NCBI RefSeq assembly: GCF_009914755.1
Contig: NC_060929.1
Reading direction: 5' to 3' (one strand)
DNA from: the human T2T-CHM13v2.0 reference genome, Homo sapiens
Length of the DNA: 64,000 nucleotides
In this document: one piece after another, positions 5,050-57,827 of the stretch
Layout: the number at the start of each line of letters is the position of its first letter
Numbering within the stretch: position 1 is the stretch's first letter
Notes under the pieces: model-generated
What the model was told of the DNA's origin: nothing
Seen by the model: the letters and a program-made list of their open reading frames with translations, nothing else
The model's database searches: none
Program-made: the position numbers and the translations under genes

Positions 5050-5593
5050 CAGGATCTTTCAACCTCTCCACTTACATTTTGGGCTGGATAATTCATCGTT
5101 GTTGGGGGGGTGTCCTGTGCATTGCAGGATGATTAGCAGCAGCATCCCTGGTTTCTACCCACTAGATGCCAACAACAGCCCCCCCTCCAAGTCGTAACAG
5201 CAAAAATATCTCCAGACACTGCCCAACATTATTATGACACCTATGAGTCAGGGTGCATCAGGTAATCGGAATGAGTCAGGGTGGAGCAGGTAATCGGAAT
5301 GAGTCAGGGTGCATCAGGTAATCGGAATGAGTCAGGGTGCATCAGGTAATCGGAATGAGTCAGGGTGGAGCAGGTAATCGGAATGAGTCAGGGTGCATCA
5401 GGTAATCGGAATGAGTCAGGGTGGAGCAGGTAATCGGAATGAGTCAGGGTGGAGCAGGTAATCGGAATGAGTCAGGGTGGAGCAGGTAATCGGAATGAAT
5501 CAGGGTGGAGCAGGTAATTGGGAATGAGTCAGGGTGCAGCAGGTAATTTGAATGAGTCTGGGTTGCAAAGCCAACCTCAGTTGAGAACTACTG
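5050..5593 (-). mobile_element. MER20 hAT-Charlie DNA transposon, split by a minisatellite insertion
   Basis: 5050-5230 matches the MER20 reverse complement (ttttgggctggataattc...ctacccactagatgcc...tccagacactgcc). The MER20 terminus (gcaaa...gttgagaactactg) resumes at about 5558-5593. Confidence 0.85.
5243..5560. repeat. 28-bp minisatellite, 11 units plus a partial unit, of LTR10 VNTR type (ATGAGTCAGGGTG[GAG/CAT]CAGGTAATCGGA)
   Basis: Units start at 5243, 5271, 5299 and so on to 5495, then 5524, with a partial unit at 5552. Ten perfect TGAGTCA sites. Confidence 0.97.
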
Positions 5594-6333
5594 ACAGAGA
5601 GAATTCAGAGTTCTAGGGAAACACTTGGTATATAGTCTGTACTTTGTTAGGGCCCTGATGGCAGTGGCACCAACTATGAACTACTAAGAGGCATTTATCA
5701 TATGCTGTCAAGAGGCTGACATTTAAAGCCCCTTTCAGTTGGATCCCAGTCTACACTTCTCAGAGTCTACTCTCTTCCTTGAATGCCAGTGTTAGATACT
5801 GATTAAGGGATTATGCAATCTATTTAGTGGGTCCTAACCAATATTTTTTAAAAAATGAAATAATGGAATAGAATAAAATAATACAGAAAATATCAATACA
5901 TTTTGTGGAATAATACTGATTTGCAAGATTTTTTATTCTGTGTGTGTGCACAGCTGTATGTTTAGTCATATTGTTACCAGAAAGGAGTCCCGATCCAGAC
6001 CCCAAGAGAGGGTTCTTGGATCTCGTGCAAGAATGAATTCAGGGCTAGTCCGTGGTGCAAAGTGAAAGAAAGTTTATTAAGAAAGTAAAGGAATAAAAGA
6101 ATGGCTACTCTATAGACAAAGCAGCCCCGGGAGCTGCTGGTTGTCCATTTTTATGGTTATTTGGGGTGGATTATTCATGCCTCCCCTTTTTAAACCATAT
6201 AGGGTAACTTCCTGATGTTGCCATGGCATTTGTAAACTGTCATGGTGCTGGTGGGAATGTAGCAGTGAGGAAGAGCAGAAGTCACTCTCGTTGCCATTTT
6301 GGTTTTGGTGGGTTTTGGCTGGCTCTTTTACTG

Positions 6334-7056
6334 TGTTATAAAGTTTCAGTGCCACAAAAGAAATAGTACTCGAAAATAAATGTTTGTTTTTAATTCTCAG
6401 CAAGGCAAGGTACTTCTATAGAAGGGTGCACCCTTACAGATGGAGCAACGATGAGCGCACACTTGGACAAGGGAGGGGAAGGGGTTCTTATCCCTGACGC
6501 ACGTGGCCCCCGTTGTTGTGTCTTTCTGCTATTGGCCAGGGTTAGACCGTGCAGGCTAAACTAATTCTGATTGGCTAATTTAAAGAGATCGACGGGGTGA
6601 GTGGTGTGGCGGGAAAAATGGTTATGACAGAGCAAGTAATTGGAATGAGTCAGGGTGCATCAGGTAATCGGAATGACTTACGGTGGAGCCGGTAATTGGA
6701 ATGAATCAGGGTGGAGCAGGTAATCGGAATGAGTCAGGGTGCGTCAGGTAATCGGAATGAGTCAGGGTGGAGTAGGTAATTGGAATTAGTCAGGGTGCAT
6801 CAGGTAACAGGAATGAGTCAGGGTGGAGCCGGTAATCGGAATGAATCAGGGTGGAGCAGGTAATCGGAATGAGTCAGGGTGCGTCAGGTAATCGGAATGA
6901 GTCAGGGTGGAGTAGGTAATCGGAATTAGTCAGGATGGGGCAGGTGATCGAAAAAGGTTGCTTTACGAGGAAGTTAAGTTTAAAAGTAGAAGGCAAAAAA
7001 TTGAACATACTGACATATTGATTCTTTGAAAAGAAATTTAGAACTCATATCTAACA
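6334..7056 (-). mobile_element. LTR10 solo LTR (LTR10A/F-like, HERV-I group) nested in MER41
   Basis: Reverse complement begins TGTTAGATATGAGTTCTAAATTTCTTTTCAAAGAATCAATATG. TG...CA ends. TSD actg/attg (6330-6333, 7057-7060). MER41 sequence is continuous across the insertion. Confidence 0.88.
6630..6951. repeat. LTR10 internal 28-bp VNTR, 11 units, 6 perfect AP-1 motifs
   Basis: Units at 6645, 6673 and so on to 6925. TGAGTCA is intact in units 1, 4, 5, 7, 9 and 10. Confidence 0.95.
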
Positions 7057-7349
7057 ATTGCAACCTGTTTTATCATCAAGGTCTTTATGACCTGTATTTT
7101 GTGCTGACCTCCTATCTCATCCTGTGACTTAGAATGCCTTCACCGTCTGGGAATGCAGCCCAGTAGGATTCAGCCTCATTTTACCCAGCTCCTGTTTAAG
7201 ATGGAGTTGCTCTGGTTCACACGCCTCTGACAATATTGGATATTGATGTAAAATGTATTCCTTATCAAAAGTTGCAGTCAAAAAAGTTTGAGAATCCCTG
7301 TTCTATTTTAACATATCCCCTGGACATACACTTCTCTCCTAATGCCTAA

Positions 7350-7815
7350 CATATCAGTGTCCTATTGCCGAAACAGATTATTACAAGTTTAGCAGCTCGA
7401 AACAAGACAAGTTTATTCTCTTGCAGGAGGTTAGAAATCTAAAATCAGTTTCACTGCTCTAAAGGCAAAGTGAAAGGCTGGTTCCTGGAGGCTCCAGGAG
7501 AGAATATTTTCCTTGTCTTTTCCAGTTTCTAGAGCTGCATTCCTTACATTCCCTGGCTTATGGCCCCTTTCTCCATGTCCCAAGTCAGGAGTATAGCATC
7601 TTCAAATCTCTCTCTGCTCCTCTTCATATTGCCTTCTTTTTCTCTGATCTTCTGCCTCCCTCTTCTAGGGCCTCCTGTGATTACATAGAACCCCCCAGGA
7701 TAACCCAAGGTAATCTCCCCATTTGAAGATCCTTCACTGAATCACTTTTGCCAAGCACCTTTTAGCATATAAAACAACACTTACAAATTCTAAGAATTAA
7801 GACACGGACATCTTC
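7350..7815 (-). mobile_element. MLT1 (ERVL-MaLR) LTR
   Basis: Typical MLT1C/D motifs (aagtttattctc...ggaggctccaggagagaat...ccagtttctagagctgc). Boundaries are approximate. Confidence 0.75.
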
Positions 7816-23660: not shown

Positions 23661-25333
23661 AAGCTGCATTAAATATCTTTTCTCTTCCTGCCTTCCTCGG
23701 TTCCTAGAGCCTCCTTGAGCTTTCTCTTCTTTGTGCACCCCAACTCCCTCTTCCTCACCTTACATCTTTCCTTGGTAAAGAGGCCAGGAGTAGCACTTTA
23801 CAAAACAATATATGTGAGTAATATAAGACTCAGAGGCATACCGCCCCATGTGGAATTTGTCTATGCCACAATAATTTCATGTTTGCCTATGTTGCCTGTG
23901 TCTCTGTGAGGCTCATGATGTCACAGCAGAACCCCATCATGCATATTTTTATTATTGCTTCTACAACTAATGCTTTAACATGATTCTTTTAACTAGGACT
24001 CATCTAATTTTAACTTTTCTCCAGGAGAATGCCCACTTGGTCGGATTTCATACATACTTAGTCTTTACTCTTTATTATCTGCAATTAACAATAGGATATA
24101 TTTACATGTCAATGATTTTAAGAACAATTTATTTACTCTTGTTTTTTTCAAGCTAATAAAATTTTATTTCCATTTGATGATGTTTATTGTAACTGAGCAA
24201 ATACTCAATCTTTTCTAAATCAGGATAAAAATAAACACAGTAAGTTACTACATTATATAGGTATCATCAAAAGAGTTACTGTTTAATCCACTGACTATGA
24301 AAAATCAGCTTTTCATACTCTTTTATCAATATTCCAGATTGAAATTCTGTCACAGGCTAGCAAAAGTAGAGACCTTTATATATGACATCTGAACAAATAA
24401 GAGCCTCAGGGCCCAGCTGCAGATATTCAGTGTTATATAAAATATGGATCTAAGTCCTAGCTCTGTTTCCAACATGAATTCCCTCATGGAGCCTGGTGTA
24501 TTCTTCTGGCTGCTTCTGCCCCTGCTGACTCCACAACAAGGACATCAGGACTCCAAGGACACCATGCCTCCTGGATTCGACAAAGGACCCTGCAGAGCCT
24601 GGCTTCCCCATGGTGTTCACATCAGTCATTGTCCTCTTCTCTCATTCCACCCCACCCCCTTTTCCAGCTGTCATGTATGAATACTTGCCAGCTCCTTGTT
24701 ATTATTGCTTTTTGGAGTCTTTTCGGTTTAAGGATTGGGCAAGTTTGCAATTTAAACCTTATGGGTTTGAATTTTCAAGTGTGAACTTTGGTGATAACTC
24801 TTGTCCAAATGCAGCTTCCTGCCCTCTCGGAAAAAAAAAGTCTCCAGAGACATTTGGACATCTATTGCAAAAGATATTTGGACACCTATTGCAAAAGAAC
24901 ATATTGCTGATGATCTAAGTATAATGGAACCAGAAGTATATGGATTATATTTCCTCTTAAATGAGCATGATTTTCAAAATGAAGGAAGTGAGTGAATTAT
25001 TTGGCAATATTGAGTTTGGAGATGGTCAATTTTTAAGTATTGGAAAAGTGAGACAGAAAACCAGGCCTGCTTTTAGGATTCTTCCTCCTTGGGTGGCAGG
25101 GAGTTACTATATTTGGTTCTGTTGCGGCCACTCCCCAGCTGTGAGAACTGTTGCACAGCCATCTCCTAGCATGGATTGGAGACTGCCACCATTCAAGGGC
25201 ATTATTAAGTGATGGCCCATCACTCAAATGCATTTAACACTTGTAAATAAGTGGTTCATAAATGTAGGATATAACACTAATGGGAGTATTAAGCAGTTGA
25301 AGCCTTTGTAACAGATCAGCTACCAGCCTAGTC

Positions 25334-26936: not shown

Positions 26937-27260
26937 TTTTTTTTTTTTTTTTTTTTGAGACAGAGTCTTGCTCCCATCCATGTTGGAATGCAGTGGTGTG
27001 ATTACAGCTCACTGTAATCACAGTAATCACAGCTCACTGTAATCACAGTAATCACAGCTCAAGAGATCCTCCCACCTCAGCCTCCCAAGAAGCTGAGATT
27101 ACAGGCACATGCCACCATGCCCAGCTAATTTTTAAATGTTTTGCAGAGACAGTGTCTCATTATGTTGCCCATGCTGGTCTCAAACTCCTGGGCTGAAGAG
27201 ATTCTCCTGCCTCGGCTTCCCAAAGTGCTGGGATTACAGATGTAAGCCACTGCGCACAGC
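26937..27260 (-). mobile_element. AluJ with an internal 25-bp tandem duplication
   Basis: Antisense dimer. TSD cttgttaactt / cctgttgactt. Confidence 0.9.
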
Positions 27261-32529: not shown

Positions 32530-33560
32530 TATAAAAGACTAATTAGGCATATACTATGCCAAGCAGTGTAACAGGAACAGTAAATAAAGTGATGAATAGG
32601 ACAGCCCTTATCTTTGCCTTCATGGAGTAAACAGTCCTGTTGATAAGATGGGCCTCGAAATTAGCAATCCTATATCAGGAGAAAAGTTAAGAGGCTTCTG
32701 CAGGGCACGAAGTCAGGGGTGATGTTAGCGTGGCAGGGGAGTGTGTTGAGGCACTGAGGGGAGAGAATATTAAAGAGATATCTTGGAGGTAAAACTGATA
32801 AACTTGGCAATTGATTCCATGTGAGGAGTGAAGAAGAGGGAGGAAACATGGCTAACTCCCAACTTTCTGGCTTGAGCAATTGGGGGTGGGAAGGGAGATA
32901 CCATTTCCCAAGAAAGAAAATATTGGAGGAATTGGAAGAGCAGCAGATATTGCGGGGTGAAAGGTTGAGAGAAAGAACTGAGTCCAGTTCAGACCGAGGA
33001 GCCTGTGACACAGTCAACACCAATGCCAAGGAGCCAGTGGATACAGGGGTTGAGGTTGCAGACATAAACACAGGATTCATCAGCATATGTGTGGTTTCTG
33101 AACCTATGGGACAGGATGGCATCACTCAGGGAAAGAGCACAGAGTCAGAAGAAAATATGACCCAAGACCAGGCCTTGAAGAACTCCGATATTTAATGTTT
33201 GGGTAGAAGAAAAGGCAAACGAAAGTATCTGAAAAGATGGGCCAGAGAAGAGAGAATCAACCAAGGGGAGATGGTCCCAGAAGTCAAACAGAAGGGAGTG
33301 ATTCGCTGTGATGAATGCTGCAGAGGCCAAATAAGGTGGGAACTTTGGCTTTAGACATGTGGACATTATAGTGATCTTAGACTGAGAAGTTTTAAGAGAT
33401 GATAGGGTTGGAATTTCATTGGGAATAATTTGAAGAGTAACAGGGGAGAAAATAGAGACAACAAAAGCACATACTCTTTAAAGAAGTTTTGCTATACAGG
33501 AGATAGAATAATGGATGGGCAGGCATAGGAGATCAAGGAAGCATCTTTTTAAAAACTACA
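32530..33560 (-). mobile_element. L2 fragments
   Basis: Purine-rich L2 motifs (tactatgccaagc, tgccttcatggag, ttctggcttgagcaattggg). Continues at about 34070-34330. Confidence 0.65.
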
Positions 33561-33664
33561 GACGTCAGCATGTTTAAACAAGAAGAGAGAGTGTGACAGA
33601 GAGGGAGAGGAAAGAAAGTTGGAGTAAGAGTGAGAAAGAGTAAGATTAATAGATAGCAAAATAT

Positions 33665-33977
33665 AGCTGGGCGAGGTGGCTCATGCCTGTAATCTCAGCA
33701 CTTTGGGAGGCCGGGCGGGGGGAAAATGTTTCACGAGGTCAGGAGTTCGAGACCACCCTGGCCAACATGGTGAAACCCCGTCTGTACTAAAAATACAAAA
33801 ATTAGCCGAGTGTGGTGGCTCATGCCTGTAATCTCAGCTACTTGGCTGGCTGAGACAGGAGAAGAATCCCTTGAACCTAGGGAGGCAGAGGTTGTAGTGA
33901 GCCAAGATCGTGCCACTGCACTCTAGCCTGGGTGACAGAGAGAGACTCCGTCTCAAAAAAGAAGAAGAAGAAAAAAA
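33665..33977 (+). mobile_element. Alu (AluS)
   Basis: Full dimer with an A/GAA tail. Confidence 0.93.
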
Positions 33978-34387
33978 GCATAAGATATCCAAGAAAATTA
34001 GAGAGAATAAGATTCAGAACCTAAGTGAGTGAACTGACCTTGGACAAGAAGCACATGTTATTTGTTGTGTCCAGAGAGAAGAAAAGATGGGTGTGGATGA
34101 AGATAGGTCTGGTATGGAAAGTTGAAGTGGTTCCCAATTACTGACTTCTGTGTGCTCTGTGAAGTAGGAGGCAAGGGGGAAGGAGGAGGAAATTATAAGT
34201 GAGGAAGGTGGTGAAGGTGTGAAAATAGTGGCAGATAGTGAAAAAGCAAGACATTAGAGAAAAGTGGTAGGACTGGAGGCACAGCAGGGGCTGGTCACTG
34301 GTCATTATGAATCCATGGCGTTACCAGCCTGCCTTCTGGACTTATGGGTTTGAAACTGCAACTGGACTTACTAGTAATTTCACCTTT

Positions 34388-35120
34388 TGATACTGCCTTT
34401 GCAAAAATTATAACAGTGGGAAAATTATGACAGTGAAAGCGATCTGACCTAACCAACTCCATCTTGCTTCTAACCTCCAATCTGTCCTTGTTTATTCCAG
34501 AGCATAGGCCAAACTAGCTTTGAGAGAAACTTAGTTTATAGGTTAACATTGAAACAAAGATGATAATAACTCCCTCATGAAATAAACCTCCTTCTTACCT
34601 AGAGAGCACACTGTCTTTGTAAGACTAACAAATTAGCCATAATACAAGAAATTCTGGTTTAGGGAGTCATGGAGCTAGAGGCCATAAGATTCTGAACCTC
34701 CCCAGTTGCTCCTAGGCATAACATCACTATTGTAACATCTAAAATTGGTGCTTGAGATGTTTTTTGGACCCTGAGTTCTGATATACCAGCTGGTGCCACC
34801 CAGACTGATAATCTGGCCTAACCAGTTTTGCAATCCCACCCAGGAAAAGAAGACAGCAAGAAGAAGCCACTTTGAGCCCCTATGATTTCATCTTTGATCC
34901 ACTCATCCAGCACTCCATACTCCTTGATCCCTACCCACCAAATTCTCCTTAAAAGCCCTGGTCTCCAAATGTTCAAGGCGACCGATTTGAGTAATAAAAC
35001 TCTAGTCTCCCATTTAGCTGGCTGTCTGTGAATTAAATTCTTTCTCCATAGCAGTTCTCCTGTCTTGATACATTAGCTGTATCTGGGCAGTGGGCAAGGC
35101 GAACCCGTTGGGCCATTTCA
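34388..35120 (+). mobile_element. LTR8-family solo LTR (LTR8A/B-like)
   Basis: Starts tgatactgcctttgcaaaaattataacagtgggaaaattatgacagtgaaag. AATAAA at about 34993. Ends ...gaacccgttgggccatttca. Near-TSD cttt/ctat. Confidence 0.85.
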
Positions 35121-35670: not shown

Positions 35671-36180
35671 AGATACTTGCACACACATGTTTATAGCAGC
35701 ACAATTCACAGTTGCAAAATCATGGAAGCAACCCAAATGCCAATCAATCAACGAGTGGATAAAGAAACTGTGGTGTATATATACAATGGAATACTACTCA
35801 GCCATAAAAAGGAATGAACTAACAGCATTTGGAATGACCTGGATGAGATTGGAGGCTATTATTCTAGTGAAGGAACTCAGGAATGGAAAACCAAACATCA
35901 TATGTTCCCACTGATACGTGGGAGCTAAGCTATGAGGATGCAAAGGCATAAGAACGATATAATGGACTCTGGGAACTTGGGGGGAAGAGTGGGAGGGAGT
36001 GAGGCATAAAAGAGTGGAAGGGAGCAAGGAATAAAACAAATATGGTGCAGTGTATACCACTTGGGTGATAGGTGCACCAGGATCTCACAAATCACCACCA
36101 AAGAACTACCCATGTAACCAAATACCACCTGTACCCCCAATAATTTATGGAAAAATAATAATTAAAAAGTAAAAAAAAAA
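35671..36180 (+). mobile_element. L1PB 3' end inserted in an older L1ME fragment
   Basis: ORF2 C-terminal remnant (MFIAAQFTVAKSWKQPKC), 3' UTR and A-tail. TSD ttcatattg on both sides. Confidence 0.85.
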
Positions 36181-36452: not shown

Positions 36453-36700
36453 CAGGATTTCTGAACAGCAGCACTAATGACATTTTTGGCAGGATACTTC
36501 TTTGTTGTGGCAGGATACTTCTTTGTTGTGGCAGGCTGTCCAGTGCATTGTTGGAGGACAGCTTGCCTCTACCCACTTAATACCAGTAGTACTTGCTTCC
36601 TTGAGTTGTGACAACCAAAAATATGTCCAAACATTGTCAAATGAGGTGCTGGTCATGGCAAGGGCACAAAAATTATGCCCAGTTGAGAATCACCGCTTCC
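36453..36700 (-). mobile_element. MER20 with an internal 21-bp tandem duplication
   Basis: MER20 reverse complement. tggcaggatacttctttgttg occurs twice at 36487-36528. Confidence 0.8.
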
Positions 36701-37879: not shown

Positions 37880-39850
37880 ACCAGCGTGCGTGAATGCAGA
37901 CTCCAGATCCAGCGCAGACGCCAAGAATTCGCTCAGGGGCACCAGCTAAATAGCAAACAGATGCCATGTCAAACATGTGAAAGCCTCAGCGACTAGGGTA
38001 CCGCCGGGAAAACCAGTTCCAGCCCAGGAATTTCTGGGTGGAAACACTGGCCGCCGAATTGTTTTATTCTCTTTGCTTGATTCGAGTCGGTTCTGAAAGC
38101 AGGTGTCCCCTCTCCCCCGGCTTCAGGAAGGGAAACCCCGGCCCCAGGCAGTTGCAGAGCTAAGAAAAACCATCCCGCCAGGCCCCTTCTTGTGGTAACG
38201 CGGTCCTAACCCTGCTCTGCCCCACAACCCCATTTCACCCGGGAGACGCAGACGCCAGGCTCCCTAGCACTTTGTCGCCTCTTCCTCCAGCCTGGCTTCC
38301 TGAGCTCTGGAAAAGTTCCGGGCCTCCGGACGTTGTTTCCATCTTCGCCTTCGCTGCCTGGGCCGCATGCCTCCTGGGCTTATTTAGGAAGCGAAGTTAG
38401 CGCCACACATTTGGCTCCAGAAATTTGTTCTGACGGCGCGGCCGACGCCCTGCAGGGTCATTTCTGAACGCATTCCCAAATATCCTGGTCCTCAAGCCCT
38501 TACCACCCCCTAGCACACGAAGCCCCAGCTGGCGGTGGAGCAGGTGTGTTGCTGGTAGCTCATCGCTGGCTTGGAGATAGAGGTGCTTGGTACCTGTCCC
38601 CTTTCCGACAACACCTGAAACCGTATCGGGGCACACCCCTCATCCAAATATCCACGTTTAAGGTGTCCGGATTCGTTTGGCTTGACCACCCCCTCCCCGC
38701 GCCAACCCTGGAGGCATCTTCCGTGGGGTCTGTCTCTTCGAACCCAAAGGGGTACGCGTCTGGGTGAGCCAGGTCCGCCTCTTCCCTGGCGCTGGCCGGG
38801 GGCGGGGGTGGGTAGGCTGGGACCTGTGTCTGATTAGCTGGGAGGGGGAAGCCATGGTCCCAACCGCTGTCTGCTGAGCTCCAGTCCGTCCAGGCTCTTC
38901 CAGGAGGAAGAGGCACGATACAAGAGAGGAGGGGCAGGGGTCCCAGCACTGAACACCCTGGCCGGGGTTTTGACAGCTGCCACAGTCTCTGAGCTCCAGC
39001 CTCGCGCCTGAACCCGGTCCCTGCCATGGGGCCCCCTTCCAGCTCAGGCTTCTATGTGAGCCGCGCAGTGGCCCTGCTGCTGGCTGGGTTGGTAGCCGCC
39101 CTCCTGCTGGCGCTGGCCGTACTCGCCGCCTTGTACGGCCACTGCGAGCGCGTCCCACCGTCGGAGCTGCCTGGACTCAGGGACTCGGAAGCCGAGTCTT
39201 CCCCTCCCCTCAGGCAGAAGCCGACGCCGACCCCGAAACCCAGCAGTGCACGCGAGCTAGCGGTGACGACCACCCCGAGCAACTGGCGACCCCCGGGGCC
39301 CTGGGACCAGCTACGCCTGCCGCCCTGGCTCGTGCCGCTGCACTACGATCTGGAGCTGTGGCCGCAGCTGAGGCCCGACGAGCTTCCGGCCGGGTCTTTG
39401 CCCTTCACTGGCCGCGTGAACATCACGGTGCGCTGCACGGTGGCCACCTCTCGACTGCTGCTGCATAGCCTCTTCCAGGACTGCGAGCGCGCCGAGGTGC
39501 GGGGACCCCTTTCCCCGGGCACTGGGAACGCCACAGTGGGCCGCGTGCCCGTGGACGACGTGTGGTTCGCGCTGGACACGGAATACATGGTGCTGGAGCT
39601 CAGTGAGCCCCTGAAACCTGGTAGCAGCTACGAGCTGCAGCTTAGCTTCTCGGGCCTGGTGAAGGAAGACCTCAGGGAGGGACTCTTTCTCAACGTCTAC
39701 ACCGACCAGGGCGAGCGCAGGTAAGGGCTGTACAGCCCGGGGCCCCTCTCGGCCCCCGCCCCTGCGTCCCGGTGCAGGCTGCGGGTCCAGCTGACTACCG
39801 TGTCCAGGTGCGCGTCTGCTGCCCTTTCCAAAGAATCCCCTTGCGACGTT
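37880..39850 (+). promoter_or_regulatory. CpG-island promoter of LVRN with a GC box / G-rich tract at about 38794-38821
   Basis: Sharp rise in GC and CpG content spanning exon 1. ggggcgggggtggg is an Sp/KLF-type motif. No obvious TATA box. The TSS cannot be determined from sequence alone. Confidence 0.85.
39026..39720 (+). CDS. LVRN: Laeverin / aminopeptidase Q, coding exon 1 (type II signal anchor, Pro/Thr-rich stalk, start of the M1 N-terminal domain)
   Basis: Kozak GCCATGG. MGPPSSSGFYVSRAVALLLAGL... hydrophobic anchor. RLP..LVPLHYDLEL M1 motif. Donor CAG|GTAAGG at 39720/39721, phase 2. Confidence 0.97.
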
Positions 39851-52753: not shown

Positions 52754-55700
52754 AGATTTATCTATTTTACTAATCTTCTTGTAGAACCAGTTTTTGGCTT
52801 CATTGATTTTCTCTATTGATTTTCTGTTTTTTATTTCACCGATTTATATTTTGATCTTTATTATCCACTTTCTTCTTACTTTGGGCTTTATTTTTACTTT
52901 TTCTATACTATGGTTGACACAAACTTATTACTTTAAGACCCTTTTATTTCTCATATAGGCATTTAATATTATAAATTTCCCACTAACTATTGCTTTAATG
53001 CCATGCCACAAATGATGTTATGTTGTTTTTATCTTTTTTTTGGAAGTTCAGAATACTTTCTAATTTCCATTTGGATTTTATCTTTGACTCCTGTGTTATT
53101 TAGAACTGCATTATTTGCTTTCCAAATGTTTCAGCATCTTCTCATTTTTTATTGAATGCCTGACATTTAAATTTTTATGTTGTTGGATGCTGGATTTGGT
53201 TATATTGCTTAGAGAATGCTGGCCCTTTTGGATAGTAACTGAAGTTACTTGGTGATCCTGTTGATCCTTGTTTGATTCTCTTGAGCCATGTTTTTAAGCT
53301 CTTTGAGAGTGACTCTAAAGAAGCCTTTACTCTAGGGCTACTTTAGGCCACTACTCAGGCATCACCCATCTGGTCTCCCTCTGTTGAATAATCTATATAT
53401 TCTGAAGATTTCAATACTCTGGCTTGAGAAAATTCCAACAACTCCAAACAGTATGTGAACTCTGGGAAGTGTTCAGCTTACCATTCCCTGGTACTTATTC
53501 TTTCCCCAGCAGCTTCTCTTTGCCTGACCTCATGATGATTACTATTTGTCCAAAGACTTGAGGGGAATCCTATACAGATTTCTGGAAGTCTTTCTTTGCA
53601 TAGTTACCTCTTCTCTTATACTCTACTCGGCAAATTCTAGCTGTCTAGGTGTCCCTGAACTCTAACGTCTGTCTCTTCAACTCAGTGAGACCACCGAATT
53701 GTTTCAGTTTCCCTTTCCTGTGCTGCAGTTTAGAAACTGCTTCGAGGCAGAAAAACAGGGTAATTGTAGCATTTGCTTTGCTTGTTTCTCTTCTCTTGAG
53801 GATCACAGTCCTGTGCTTCTGGTTGTCTTATGTCTGAAATAGTTGTTTTATATATTTTGTCAGGTTTTAAAACTGTTTTCAGCAGAAGGCTGATTTGAGC
53901 CTATGTTATTCCCTGTGGTGGCAAACAGAAGTCTCATTATCTTTAGATTTGGGAATGCTATTAATTATAAAGTTAATCTCTAGTCGTCTTCATGACATCT
54001 CAGTTTAGTTTAGTTTTAGTATTTATTACGTTATGTACTTCAAAGCAGTCAGTGCATTGGAAAGGACCCCAGGCTTGGGACCTGGAGCCCTGATTCTGGT
54101 ACCACTGTGCACTTGCTGGTCGTCTAATCAGTTGCATAAACTCCTGGGGAGTCAGTTTTCACATCTGTCAATTAAGATGGTGGGACTCTTTAAGGTCTCT
54201 TCACTTTTGTAATTTAATGAGAGAACTCATACACTCCCACTTTTGTTCAAAGATTCCCAGAATACTTCTTGCATTTTTGATTCTAGCATTCCCTTGATTA
54301 AAGAAAAGAAGGAACTGAAAGATATTTAAAGAAATGAAAATAGAAAGATCAAGATCAAATAAGGAAAGTGTGAAATAGTTGGTGAAAATTAGGATATTTT
54401 GGGGGGCCAAATAAAGGTGAAAGCAGCATGATTAAAATCAATGAATTTGTGCAGGTTTAGACAGAGTGAACAGAGAATAGAAACAGACTTTCTTGCAGTT
54501 GCTGTTTATGCTAGGAAATCTGGCATGGTGATTAGGGTATGACACACAAGAGAGAAATTTGAGCAGTATCAGGAAAAGAATTTGTAAGTCTCAAAACGAG
54601 GTCAGAGAACTTAAGTGCCAGACACATGATGCTGGTGTCACAGAGGAAAATGTCATTTCATTATCCTATAAAGGTGTCAAACCCATATATTTCATGTGGC
54701 TGAGCAGTCCTCTCTGGGAGATGGTTTTGCACAGCAAAGATTCAGATCCTGTGTCTTTTGAAAATACGTATAGCTAGCATATTGAAAAAGCATAGCTTAC
54801 AGATTAGTAAAAACACAACTTTGTTTTTCCATTGTCCTTTTACAGTGGGAAATTTAGTCTGTGGGGTAACTTTTCTGCTCTGCATGAGGACCCCAGCAGC
54901 CTATAAGTTCCTGCTTATTCTTAAGTGACAGGTGATCTACAGTAACTAAGTCACAAGTAAGTTAGATGAGAAAATTAGAAAATCCAGTCCTGTGTAATAT
55001 TCAAACCTTTGAACTTAATTTACTGTTAAACCTCTTTCTCTCCCACCTCCATTTTTCTCCCATCTTCCACTCCCTACTCTTGGGCTAGTTTTTAGGATGG
55101 AAGCCTGCATTAAGGTACAGGGTGGTAGTCCTTCTTCTTTTCTTTACCTCACGTTTCTGCTCTTCTTTGCCTATCTTGATAGCTGCTATTTTGATTCCAC
55201 GGGAGTCCATGGGGCTGGGGGTGACAGGGAGAGGTGACACATAGGACTTCTTACTTGAGCTGGCACTGTTGTCATTTGGTCTCATTCTGGTCTTACAGAT
55301 GCATTTTCCCCTTGAGATGTCATTTTCCTGGATTCTTCAGTGTTTTTCCTCTTTTTTTCTACAATTTCCTTGACTCAGCAACTTCTATTTCTTTGTTCTG
55401 ATAGTCATCATGACTTCTTCCTCAGCCCCTAGACACCAAGCAGCGTATCTCAAAGCTCCTCCAGCCTCCTCCAGGTGGCTCTACTGGACTAAATCAAGAC
55501 AGTCCCCATATTGGCTCACTTTGTATGGTAGGGGACACAGCTCTTGCAAGGAATGCTCATGCTTCCCTGGCCTGGGACTGGCATGAGTCCCAAGGCAGCA
55601 GCACTCCAAAGAAGTCAGCCATTCTCATGCCTTTTAGATCCCCACCTGGTAGGAGTTAGACCTTGGCCATACCATCAATTTCATCTTTCTCAAAAGTGAG

Positions 55701-57827
55701 TTGGGCTTCTAAGCCTCTCAGCCTCAGGAAACACTTTCACTGCTCTCTGAGGGATTCTCTCCTCCAAGCCCATAGTTAGAAGGTTGCCCCTCCTCCCAAC
55801 TCCCTGAGAGCGTGGAAAGCTTGGCAAAATAATGCTTCCCCCTCCCCTCCATCAAGAGATAGCTTCTCCAATCTCTTTTGTCTCCATTCTCTGACCCTTC
55901 TTCTGGGGCCCTCATGTAGCTGAGAAGCCCAACAGGCATACCCAGGTTCTCAAGGCCATTTATTTTGAAAATCTTCATAACATGTTTTGGCACCTTTCTC
56001 TGGAATTTTATATCTATTATGTTTTGTTGCCTGGTGAAAACTTCAGTTTTCAGATTCTATTACACAAGTAATAAACAAACGTGATTCATAAGCCAACCCT
56101 TGAACCACAGTCCAGTAGTGTAACATCTGGCTCTACTAAACATTTTGATTTCTGAGTGTGTTATTGTGTAAAAAAACTGTGGGAGGACAACTTGCCTAAG
56201 AGTTTTATTTAATACTTGACCGGCTATGCTATTCAGCACTTGTTAAGTAGAGCTGTAGACATACAAAGTTCATAAAATAATTTGGAATGAAATAGCTTAC
56301 TGAGTGGATGTAGTAGATTTTTGTTTATGTTGTAGTAGGTTTATTCTCCAAGGGTGTCATGTGGTTCTTGACCACAAAGAAAGCAGTGAGTCCATGATCC
56401 ACTTCCAGCACAAGAAAACAGTGAGTCCATGATTCTCTTTCCAGACAAGAGGGCAGGAAAGTTGCTCTGCAATACTGACCCACAAGGAGACAAATTCTCC
56501 CAAATTAACTCCCTCACCAGCTGACCATTCTAAACACAGACTTAATGGACACCATAATAGCATGTTTCAGTGAGATTTGAAGGGAGGAGAGGGTGGTGGA
56601 TGGTTCTATTTTCTGAAGTCAAAATATCGTTACAGGGTAGCTTGAGTCCAAAGCACAGAGAAAAGGGAAGGAAACACCACTGTGAGGTTCTCAGAGGTGG
56701 CATAACTAGATCATATGTGCTGCTGGTTAGACTTGACTTTTGCAGTTAAGGTTGAGAGCCAAAGGCTGTGTGTCGTAGGGATTTTCCCCTAACTTTTGGT
56801 TTGTTTGCATAAAACTAGGGAGGGAAATAGTTGAATTAAATTTGAGAGACTTTATTTTACTTATTTGGAGACCTGAATCATGGAATTGGAAGATGCTTGC
56901 TTGATGTTTGATTTGCTGAAGTGGTGACTCTTTAAGCTGGCGTCTCCACCTGCTTTTACACTCCAGGTTCACTTTTGGAACCTGTAAAATAAAAGTTTCC
57001 CACTTCCTTAAGGAGTATAATTTTCTCTCCGCTCCCCACCTTGCAGTCTCTTTGAGATTCATAAGCTTTGTGAGGTCATGGCAGCTGAGAACGTATGATC
57101 AAGCTTTACTTCCTATAGTTTCTGTTACAAAGACAATAGGCATTTGTTGGCTTTTAAAAAATACATGAGCATGTATTTTTTAATATGCCACCAGTTGTAC
57201 AAAATATCCTATAATTTCAGAGGGCTCAAAGACCTCCTGAAGGCCATGCATGAACCTGGAAGGGGGTTGTTTCTCCCAACTTTAGATGACTCATGGGCTC
57301 TTTTTCCATCCTGCTGGATATCTTAATCTCTCTTAGAATCACAGTTTTAGAGTTCTGAGTGGCCTTAGAGATCATCTACATTTCATAGAAAATTTAAGTG
57401 GTATATTAAGCAACTTTCCCAAAGTTACACAACAGTCTTTACAGATTCCGAGCAAGAATTCAGGTGGCTGAATTTCCTCTTCACGCCTGTTCTTTCCACT
57501 ATATTGTCAATGGCTTGAATTTTCTCTACTTTGTCCAATCCCCTTAAAGACAGTAACCAAAACCATAAAACAAATGCCATTATAACAAACTCTGCCAAAG
57601 TACTTTATATTCTTTTGCATATACTGATATCATGCTGCTTTTATTTTATATTATTTCTTGGCTAAACAAATACTTATACAATTGCTATGAACCCAGATTT
57701 TTGCCAACTATTATAAATGATACAGAAGAAAAAGATACATAACCTCTCATTTCTAGCAGTTTCAAATTTACTAGGGCGACGAATATGACTCATGTTTAAT
57801 CTGTGGTCAGCTGTAGCCCCTAGAACA

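What the first reader, a model, noticed from the sequence alone, without database searches (positions are those of the whole stretch)
5050..7232. Composite MER20/VNTR/MER41/LTR10 module as a candidate distal trophoblast enhancer of LVRN
Seen: 16 perfect AP-1 heptamers plus several near matches within 1.7 kb, and a CArG-like ccatataggg (6195-6204), about 32 kb upstream of the LVRN ATG with no recognisable coding gene in between. Established: LVRN is expressed in human extravillous trophoblast, and the LTR10 and MER41 families are enriched among trophoblast enhancers. Inference: this primate-specific stack may drive or tune LVRN expression, with VNTR length acting as a dosage variant.
Basis: inference. 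Interest (0 to 1): 0.7.

Follow-up and report, generated by a model that had tools for sequence, protein, structure and literature searches.

The report
Known enhancer with copied AP-1 repeat
This stretch is very likely the published cancer enhancer LTR10.ATG12; it consists of one retroviral end-repeat carrying an array of AP-1 sites plus a second, bare array inside an older transposon 1 kb away that was likely copied from the first, and any control of the placental gene LVRN is untested.

Summary
The anatomy is real: 16 exact AP-1 heptamers in two 28-bp minisatellite arrays. One array lies in a solo LTR10F-type LTR nested in a MER41-type LTR; the other sits inside a MER20-type element. The locus matches the published LTR10.ATG12 enhancer (PMC466953: two LTR10F elements, 87 kb from ATG12/AP3S1; here 87.3 and 86.9 kb). 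In HCT116 cells CRISPRi of it lowers ATG12, AP3S1 and eight other genes, and repeat-length variants are already reported, so enhancer activity and the VNTR idea are in print. LVRN is not named in that paper's main text and no trophoblast data for this locus could be read; the LVRN link stays a hypothesis (about 0.2). One detail I did not find in print: the first 'LTR10F element' has no LTR. It is a net 325-bp insertion into an otherwise complete MER20, and shares with the neighbouring array a unit variant found 8 times in the genome, all 8 here (4+4). None of 34 other arrays tested lacked LTR flanks. It was likely copied locally by templated repair, adding 10 AP-1 sites to the LTR's 6. The CArG-like site is a family-wide MER41 feature.

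The parts
5050..5593 (+). MER20-type DNA transposon copy (name recalled), interrupted by array 1; degenerate terminal inverted repeats (10 of 15 match) and 8-bp flanks (5 of 8 match)
5232..5558 (-). LTR-less insertion, net 325 bp: an 8-base match (5232-5239) to the LTR stretch just before array 2, three unmatched bases, then array 1 (11 full 28-bp units and a part unit, 10 exact AP-1 sites); ends uncertain by about 2 bases
5972..6333 (-). MER41-type LTR, left piece (name and strand recalled); 4-bp target duplication at 5968-5971
6195..6204 (+). CArG-like 10-mer, one mismatch from canonical; family-wide feature of the MER41-type LTR
6334..7056 (-). solo LTR10F-type LTR nested in the MER41-type LTR; 4-bp flanks at 6330-6333 and 7057-7060 match at 3 of 4
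6630..6950 (-). array 2: the LTR's internal 28-bp repeat, 11 units, 6 exact AP-1 sites, with a 5-unit higher-order duplication
7057..7232 (-). MER41-type LTR, right piece; 4-bp target duplication at 7233-7236 identical to 5968-5971
6339..7538 (.). RefSeq functional element 'enhancer'; covers the LTR and array 2, not array 1
   Evidence: hub annotation; its assay and cell type were not seen

Best explanation
The module is very likely the published LTR10.ATG12 enhancer: a solo LTR10F-type LTR with 6 AP-1 sites in a 28-bp repeat, plus a bare 10-site array of the same repeat inside a MER20-type element that was likely copied from that LTR. Shown by sequence: the order of nesting (MER41-type LTR first, LTR10F into it) and the LTR-less insertion in MER20. 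[quoted passage not shown] Inferred: a break in the MER20 was patched by synthesis that used the neighbouring LTR's repeat as template (templated insertion), after which array 1 expanded by slippage; the two arrays then act as one homotypic AP-1 cluster that is switched on by MAPK signalling where KRAB-zinc-finger/ZEB repression is weak and that acts on several promoters of the domain. LVRN would be one possible target only where its promoter is competent.
For: Distance 87.3 kb to the ATG12 start and 86.9 kb to the AP3S1 start against '87 kb', 'two LTR10F elements on chromosome 5'; no LTR10 match in 10 kb at the mirror position beyond ATG12 or in the 10 kb left of the window; paper's LTR10F motif context 15 times, LTR10A context 0 times. 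Array 1 has no LTR flank (scores 18 and 19, random maximum 24 and 28) while 0 of 34 other loci lacked both flanks. Insertion absent from 15 of 15 MER20 paralogues; anchor distance 366 here against 41 in 8 of 15 (range 37-54). Variant unit: 8 exact matches in the genome, 4 in each array against 196 for the common unit. Second variant: 3 of 5 genome matches here, 1 in array 1 and 2 in array 2 against 83 common. 4 of 11 array-1 units are identical to unit 1 of array 2, and the left junction carries an 8-base match to the LTR just before array 2. 3 of 3 MER41-type paralogues run straight from 6333 to about 7059.
Against: The paper's coordinates and guide positions are in supplements that could not be read, so the identity rests on distance and description. 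BLAST of array 1 ranks arrays on contigs 6 and 1 (456 and 427 bits) above the neighbour (421 bits), and array 2 holds no exact common unit whereas array 1 holds 5. One-step intermediates of the variant occur on contigs 6, 12, 13 and 18. The junctions show no clean microhomology and three unexplained bases. The template is 1.1-1.4 kb away, further than the within-100-bp templates searched in PMC8421209. The orphan test covered only 34 loci, 19 of them chosen for LTR likeness. The RefSeq enhancer does not cover array 1. No primate genome was available to order or date the events.
Confidence: 0.85

Rival explanations
1. One reading: in extravillous trophoblast the module is an active enhancer that drives or tunes LVRN.
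For: LTR10A/F are enriched for JUN/JUND and several copies are proven trophoblast enhancers (PMC10113160 passages). LVRN is the nearest coding gene, 31.9 kb away. ARL14EPL, beyond LVRN, is plotted with ATG12 and AP3S1 in the CRISPRi figure (legend only; direction not stated), which suggests reach across LVRN. LVRN is inducible in epithelial cancer lines, colorectal included, in spheroid culture (PMC12713063 passages). The locus has 16 exact AP-1 sites; the 15 arrays picked by unit alone have 1-3.
Against: JUN/JUND binding is much stronger at LTR10A than at LTR10F in trophoblast stem cells, and one of the MER41B deletions had no effect. LVRN occurs 0 times in the main texts of PMC466953 and PMC10113160 and the readable supplements searched. 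Mouse Lvrn is expressed in placenta and other tissues without these primate elements (PMC6584185 abstract). The hub lists two other RefSeq enhancers within the LVRN gene (39105-39364, 53567-53856). The CArG-like site is generic and the MER41 pieces have no perfect GAS site.
Confidence: 0.2
2. Only the LTR10F (array 2 with its CCAAT, E-box and other LTR motifs) is the working enhancer; array 1 is a passenger that binds AP-1 but adds little.
For: The RefSeq enhancer covers 6339-7538 only (hub annotation). Array 1 lacks the LTR body. PMC466953 says the effect of repeat number on expression was not tested.
Against: Array 1 has more exact sites (10 against 6); motif number correlates with FOSL1 and H3K27ac signal across LTR10 copies; the paper describes the enhancer as formed by both elements.
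Confidence: 0.3
3. Array 1 came from a distant LTR10F (or is the remnant of a second LTR insertion trimmed on both sides) and later exchanged units with its neighbour by gene conversion.
For: BLAST ranks contig 6 and contig 1 arrays above the neighbour; the contig 6 LTRs carry the one-step intermediate also seen in array-1 unit 11; array 1 keeps common units that array 2 has lost.
Against: Needs two rare events. The MER20 resumes with at most about one base lost, hard to get by two trimming deletions. Two variants tie the arrays together, one of them genome-unique.
Confidence: 0.1
4. The published LTR10.ATG12 is another locus and this module is uncharacterised.
For: Coordinates were not seen.
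Against: Distance, chromosome, subfamily and the count of two all fit; the mirror position is empty; the nearest other listed common unit on the contig is about 590 kb from ATG12.
Confidence: 0.04

Closest known systems
LTR10.ATG12 enhancer (Ivancevic et al. 2024, PMC466953)
   Same: Chromosome 5, 87 kb from ATG12/AP3S1, two LTR10F-type AP-1 clusters, 28-30 bp repeat with reported indels; very likely the same locus.
   Different: The paper calls both parts LTR10F elements; here one is shown to be only the repeat, inside a MER20-type element. Its main text does not mention LVRN, and the preprint does not mention MER20.
LTR10A/LTR10F trophoblast enhancers (Frost et al. 2023, PMC10113160: LTR10A at ENG and CSF1R)
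   Same: AP-1 motifs in an LTR10 LTR near a trophoblast gene.
   Different: The proven copies are LTR10A and intronic; LTR10F binds JUN/JUND more weakly; this locus is not among the excisions found on chr5.
Germline templated insertions (MMBIR / polymerase-theta type; PMC8421209, PMC7615360)
   Same: A local sequence copied into a new site with little loss at the target and a patchwork junction.
   Different: Template 1.1-1.4 kb away, the copied piece is a minisatellite that can go on expanding, and no clean microhomology was found; the pathway is inferred.

Membership tests
LTR10F (6334-7056) | AP-1 motif in the LTR10F context given in PMC466953, not the LTR10A context | tested here: met
   15 matches on the minus strand (6 in this LTR, 9 in array 1), LTR10A context 0
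LTR10F (6334-7056) | internal 28-30 bp tandem repeat holding the AP-1 motif | tested here: met
LTR10F (6334-7056) | LTR termini shared with dispersed copies and a 4-bp target duplication | tested here: met
   paralogue alignments stop at 7055-7060 in 19 of 19 (one with a negligible score) and start at 6332-6339 in 17 of 19; flanks match at 3 of 4
LTR10F (6334-7056) | match to the Dfam/Repbase subfamily model | not testable with these tools
   no repeat library held
LTR10F as a complete LTR (array 1) | LTR body on both sides of the repeat | tested here: not met
   flank scores at random level; LTR pieces match once in the window
LTR10.ATG12 enhancer | two LTR10F-type elements 87 kb from ATG12 and AP3S1 on chromosome 5 | tested here: met
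LTR10.ATG12 enhancer | published coordinates or guide sites fall in this stretch | not testable with these tools
   supplements too large to read
MER41-type LTR | dispersed LTR with TG...CA ends and 4-bp duplication, continuous across the nested insert | tested here: met
   39 other copies among 40 scored at 81-85%; duplication exact; 3 of 3 paralogues continuous; name recalled
MER41B as interferon/STAT enhancer | intact STAT (GAS) sites | tested here: not met
   no perfect GAS 9-mer in either piece, nor in 3 of 3 paralogues fetched; three one-mismatch sites; GAS pattern recalled
MER20 (hAT-Charlie) | about 220-bp dispersed element with terminal inverted repeats and 8-bp duplication | tested here: inconclusive
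   39 other copies among 40 scored at 74-86%; inverted repeats 10 of 15, flanks 5 of 8; name and size recalled
trophoblast enhancer of LVRN | open, H3K27ac-marked, JUN-bound in trophoblast; contacts and affects LVRN | not testable with these tools
   peak and loop tables not readable; no mention in texts searched

The most novel reading that the evidence does not exclude
A retroviral AP-1 minisatellite escaped its LTR by local templated repair, seeded a second, faster-turning-over array in a DNA transposon, and the resulting 16-site cluster is the primate-specific enhancer that gives LVRN its extravillous-trophoblast expression and reawakens it in floating cancer cells, with array length as a dosage variant: one element linking ATG12/AP3S1 in tumours and LVRN in placenta.
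Probability: 0.12. Interest if true: 0.65.

Novelty: already known. Interest (0 to 1): 0.3.

Why it matters
As an enhancer the locus is already a worked example of a retroviral LTR co-opted in cancer. The added detail, if confirmed in primates, shows a route by which a transcription-factor-site repeat leaves its transposon and multiplies nearby, which repeat annotation hides by calling the bare array a second LTR. It also makes a clean experiment possible: array 1 is AP-1 sites without any LTR context, so deleting each array separately tests whether site number alone sets enhancer strength, a point PMC466953 lists as untested. The LVRN question can be asked with existing CRISPRi lines.

Tried and rejected
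Mirror position 87 kb beyond ATG12 as the published locus: no LTR10 match in 10 kb. The two arrays as the two LTRs of one provirus or two full LTRs: array 1 has no LTR flank. Assembly artefact: the hg38-based paper also counts two elements. CArG site as a special feature: 641 genome matches of its context. MER41 as an intact STAT enhancer: no perfect GAS site. TEAD sites in the unit: the core is in most units but overlaps the AP-1 site and only 3 units (all in array 2) have the stronger flank (motif recalled); not pursued. A strict recalled CTCF-like pattern gave 0 matches in the window; too strict to say anything about insulation. Using CpG decay to give the direction of copying: rejected, the two forms of the variant can be ordered either way. 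Literature searches for an LVRN enhancer, for LTR10F with trophoblast/AP3S1 and for LTR10F/MER20/tandem repeat/nested listed no paper on LVRN control by this element or on the bare array. The source study of the RefSeq enhancer that I guessed from memory was not in the library. PMC10474299 does not mention ATG12, AP3S1 or LVRN. A wider survey for other bare arrays was not completed: 15 of about 66 further places listed were examined, and 96 matches were not listed.

Full report
Observation. The exact AP-1 heptamer occurs 27 times in the window (shuffles 11.8 +/- 3.6), 16 of them between 5244 and 6904. They lie in two tandem arrays of 28-bp period, 5243-5563 and 6630-6950, 10 and 6 sites, with nine further one-mismatch sites inside the arrays. 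Outside the module the density predicts about 0.3 per 1.7 kb. The excess is real but comes from copying one unit. The CArG-like 10-mer at 6195 has one mismatch; the window has 92 such sites and its 21-base context recurs 641 times in the genome at up to one mismatch, so it is a family trait.

Anatomy. 6334-7056 is a dispersed LTR: 40 candidates of 726 were scored, with other copies at 73-88% over most of its length. Paralogue alignments end at its right boundary and, in 17 of 19, begin within 5 bases of its left one; the 4-bp flanks match at 3 of 4. The motif context that PMC466953 gives for LTR10F occurs 15 times on the minus strand and the LTR10A context never. This LTR splits an older LTR, 5972-7232, with an exact 4-bp duplication; 3 of 3 paralogues fetched run straight from 6333 to about 7059. 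I call it MER41-type from memory; it has no perfect GAS site. 5050-5593 is a third dispersed element, MER20-type from memory.

Array 1. Aligned with 15 of the 24 paralogues fetched, the MER20-type copy is complete on both sides of one insertion, absent from 15 of 15; the distance between two anchors is 366 here and 41 in 8 of 15 (range 37-54), a net gain of 325 bases. Array 1 has no LTR on either side (scores 18 and 19; random maxima 24 and 28), whereas 0 of 34 other loci lacked both flanks; 33 had both and one could be tested on one side only. Nineteen of these were chosen for LTR likeness, 15 only for holding the unit (the first 15 of about 66 further places listed, which left 96 matches unlisted), so bare arrays are uncommon but their number is not known.

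Where array 1 came from. A two-change variant of the unit has 8 exact matches in the whole genome, 4 in each array of this locus; the common unit has 196; none of 19 paralogous arrays carries the variant. A second variant has 5 matches, 3 here, in both arrays, against 83 common. Four array-1 units are identical to the first unit of array 2, and the left junction begins with 8 bases that also precede array 2 in the LTR. Array 1 is more uniform (mean 1.9 differences between units against 4.5), and its first nine units are of just two types, which points to recent turnover (inference). Against: BLAST ranks arrays on contigs 6 and 1 just above the neighbour, array 2 has lost the exact common unit that array 1 keeps five times, one-step intermediates occur at five places on four other contigs, and the junctions have no clean microhomology. 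Since the repeat's home is the LTR, the simplest history is a local templated insertion followed by slippage; the repair pathway is inferred. Germline templated insertions are described (PMC8421209 and PMC7615360, passages), with nearer templates than the 1.1-1.4 kb here.

What is known. PMC466953 (abstract, sections 12 part 1 and 13, passages; supplements not readable) describes LTR10.ATG12 as two LTR10F elements on chromosome 5, 87 kb from ATG12 and AP3S1. Array 1 starts 87.3 and 86.9 kb from those starts (hub annotation); the mirror position beyond ATG12 has no LTR10 match. [quoted passage not shown] LTR10A/F are enriched for KRAB-zinc-finger, TRIM28 and ZEB binding; the arrays hold 11 and 7 E-box-type hexamers of the kind I recall as ZEB sites. 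The preprint (passages) says the same and names neither LVRN nor MER20.

LVRN. For: it is the nearest coding gene (31.9 kb); ARL14EPL, beyond it, is plotted in the CRISPRi figure (legend only); LTR10A/F bind JUN/JUND in trophoblast stem cells (PMC10113160, passages); LVRN is inducible in cancer spheroids, colorectal included (PMC12713063, passages). Against: LTR10F binds much more weakly than LTR10A there; LVRN is absent from the main texts and readable supplements searched (one scanned file and the large tables unseen); mouse Lvrn is expressed in placenta without these elements (PMC6584185, abstract); two other RefSeq enhancers lie within LVRN (hub). Four searches listed no paper on an LVRN enhancer (listings only). 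I put it at about 0.2.

Verdict. An already published enhancer whose repeat polymorphism is also in print. The addition is anatomical: one of its 'two LTR10F elements' is a bare, likely locally copied AP-1 minisatellite in a DNA transposon; searches (listings only) did not show this, but the library lacks most subscription journals and figures and supplements of PMC466953 may show it. Interest 0.3.

Noticed in passing
L012, L050-L069 (G000:C15:23495459-23499454): A greatly expanded LTR10-type array, over 3 kb; 66-67 units in the part held, with 0 exact AP-1 heptamers because the dominant unit has a change in the site: an expansion of dead sites.
   Followed up: partly
window 6646-6925: Array 2 has a 5-unit (140 bp) higher-order duplication: units 3-5 match units 8-10 with 0, 0 and 1 differences.
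   Followed up: yes
window 6740-6746 and 6880-6886: The local unit variant creates a second, one-mismatch AP-1/CRE-like heptamer 10 bases after the main site in two units of array 2.
   Followed up: no
L003 (G000:C1:73025393) and L002 (G000:C6:162673609): Single LTRs with 17 and 13 units (15 and 10 exact AP-1 sites), comparable in site number to this locus.
   Followed up: no
window 27004-27061, 36487-36535, 24848-24898, 35985-36036, 56377-56450: Short two-copy tandem duplications of 21-35 bases.
   Followed up: no
window 32986-35016: The lncRNA LINCADL lies between the module and LVRN, 26 kb from array 2, and is a nearer candidate target (hub annotation).
   Followed up: no
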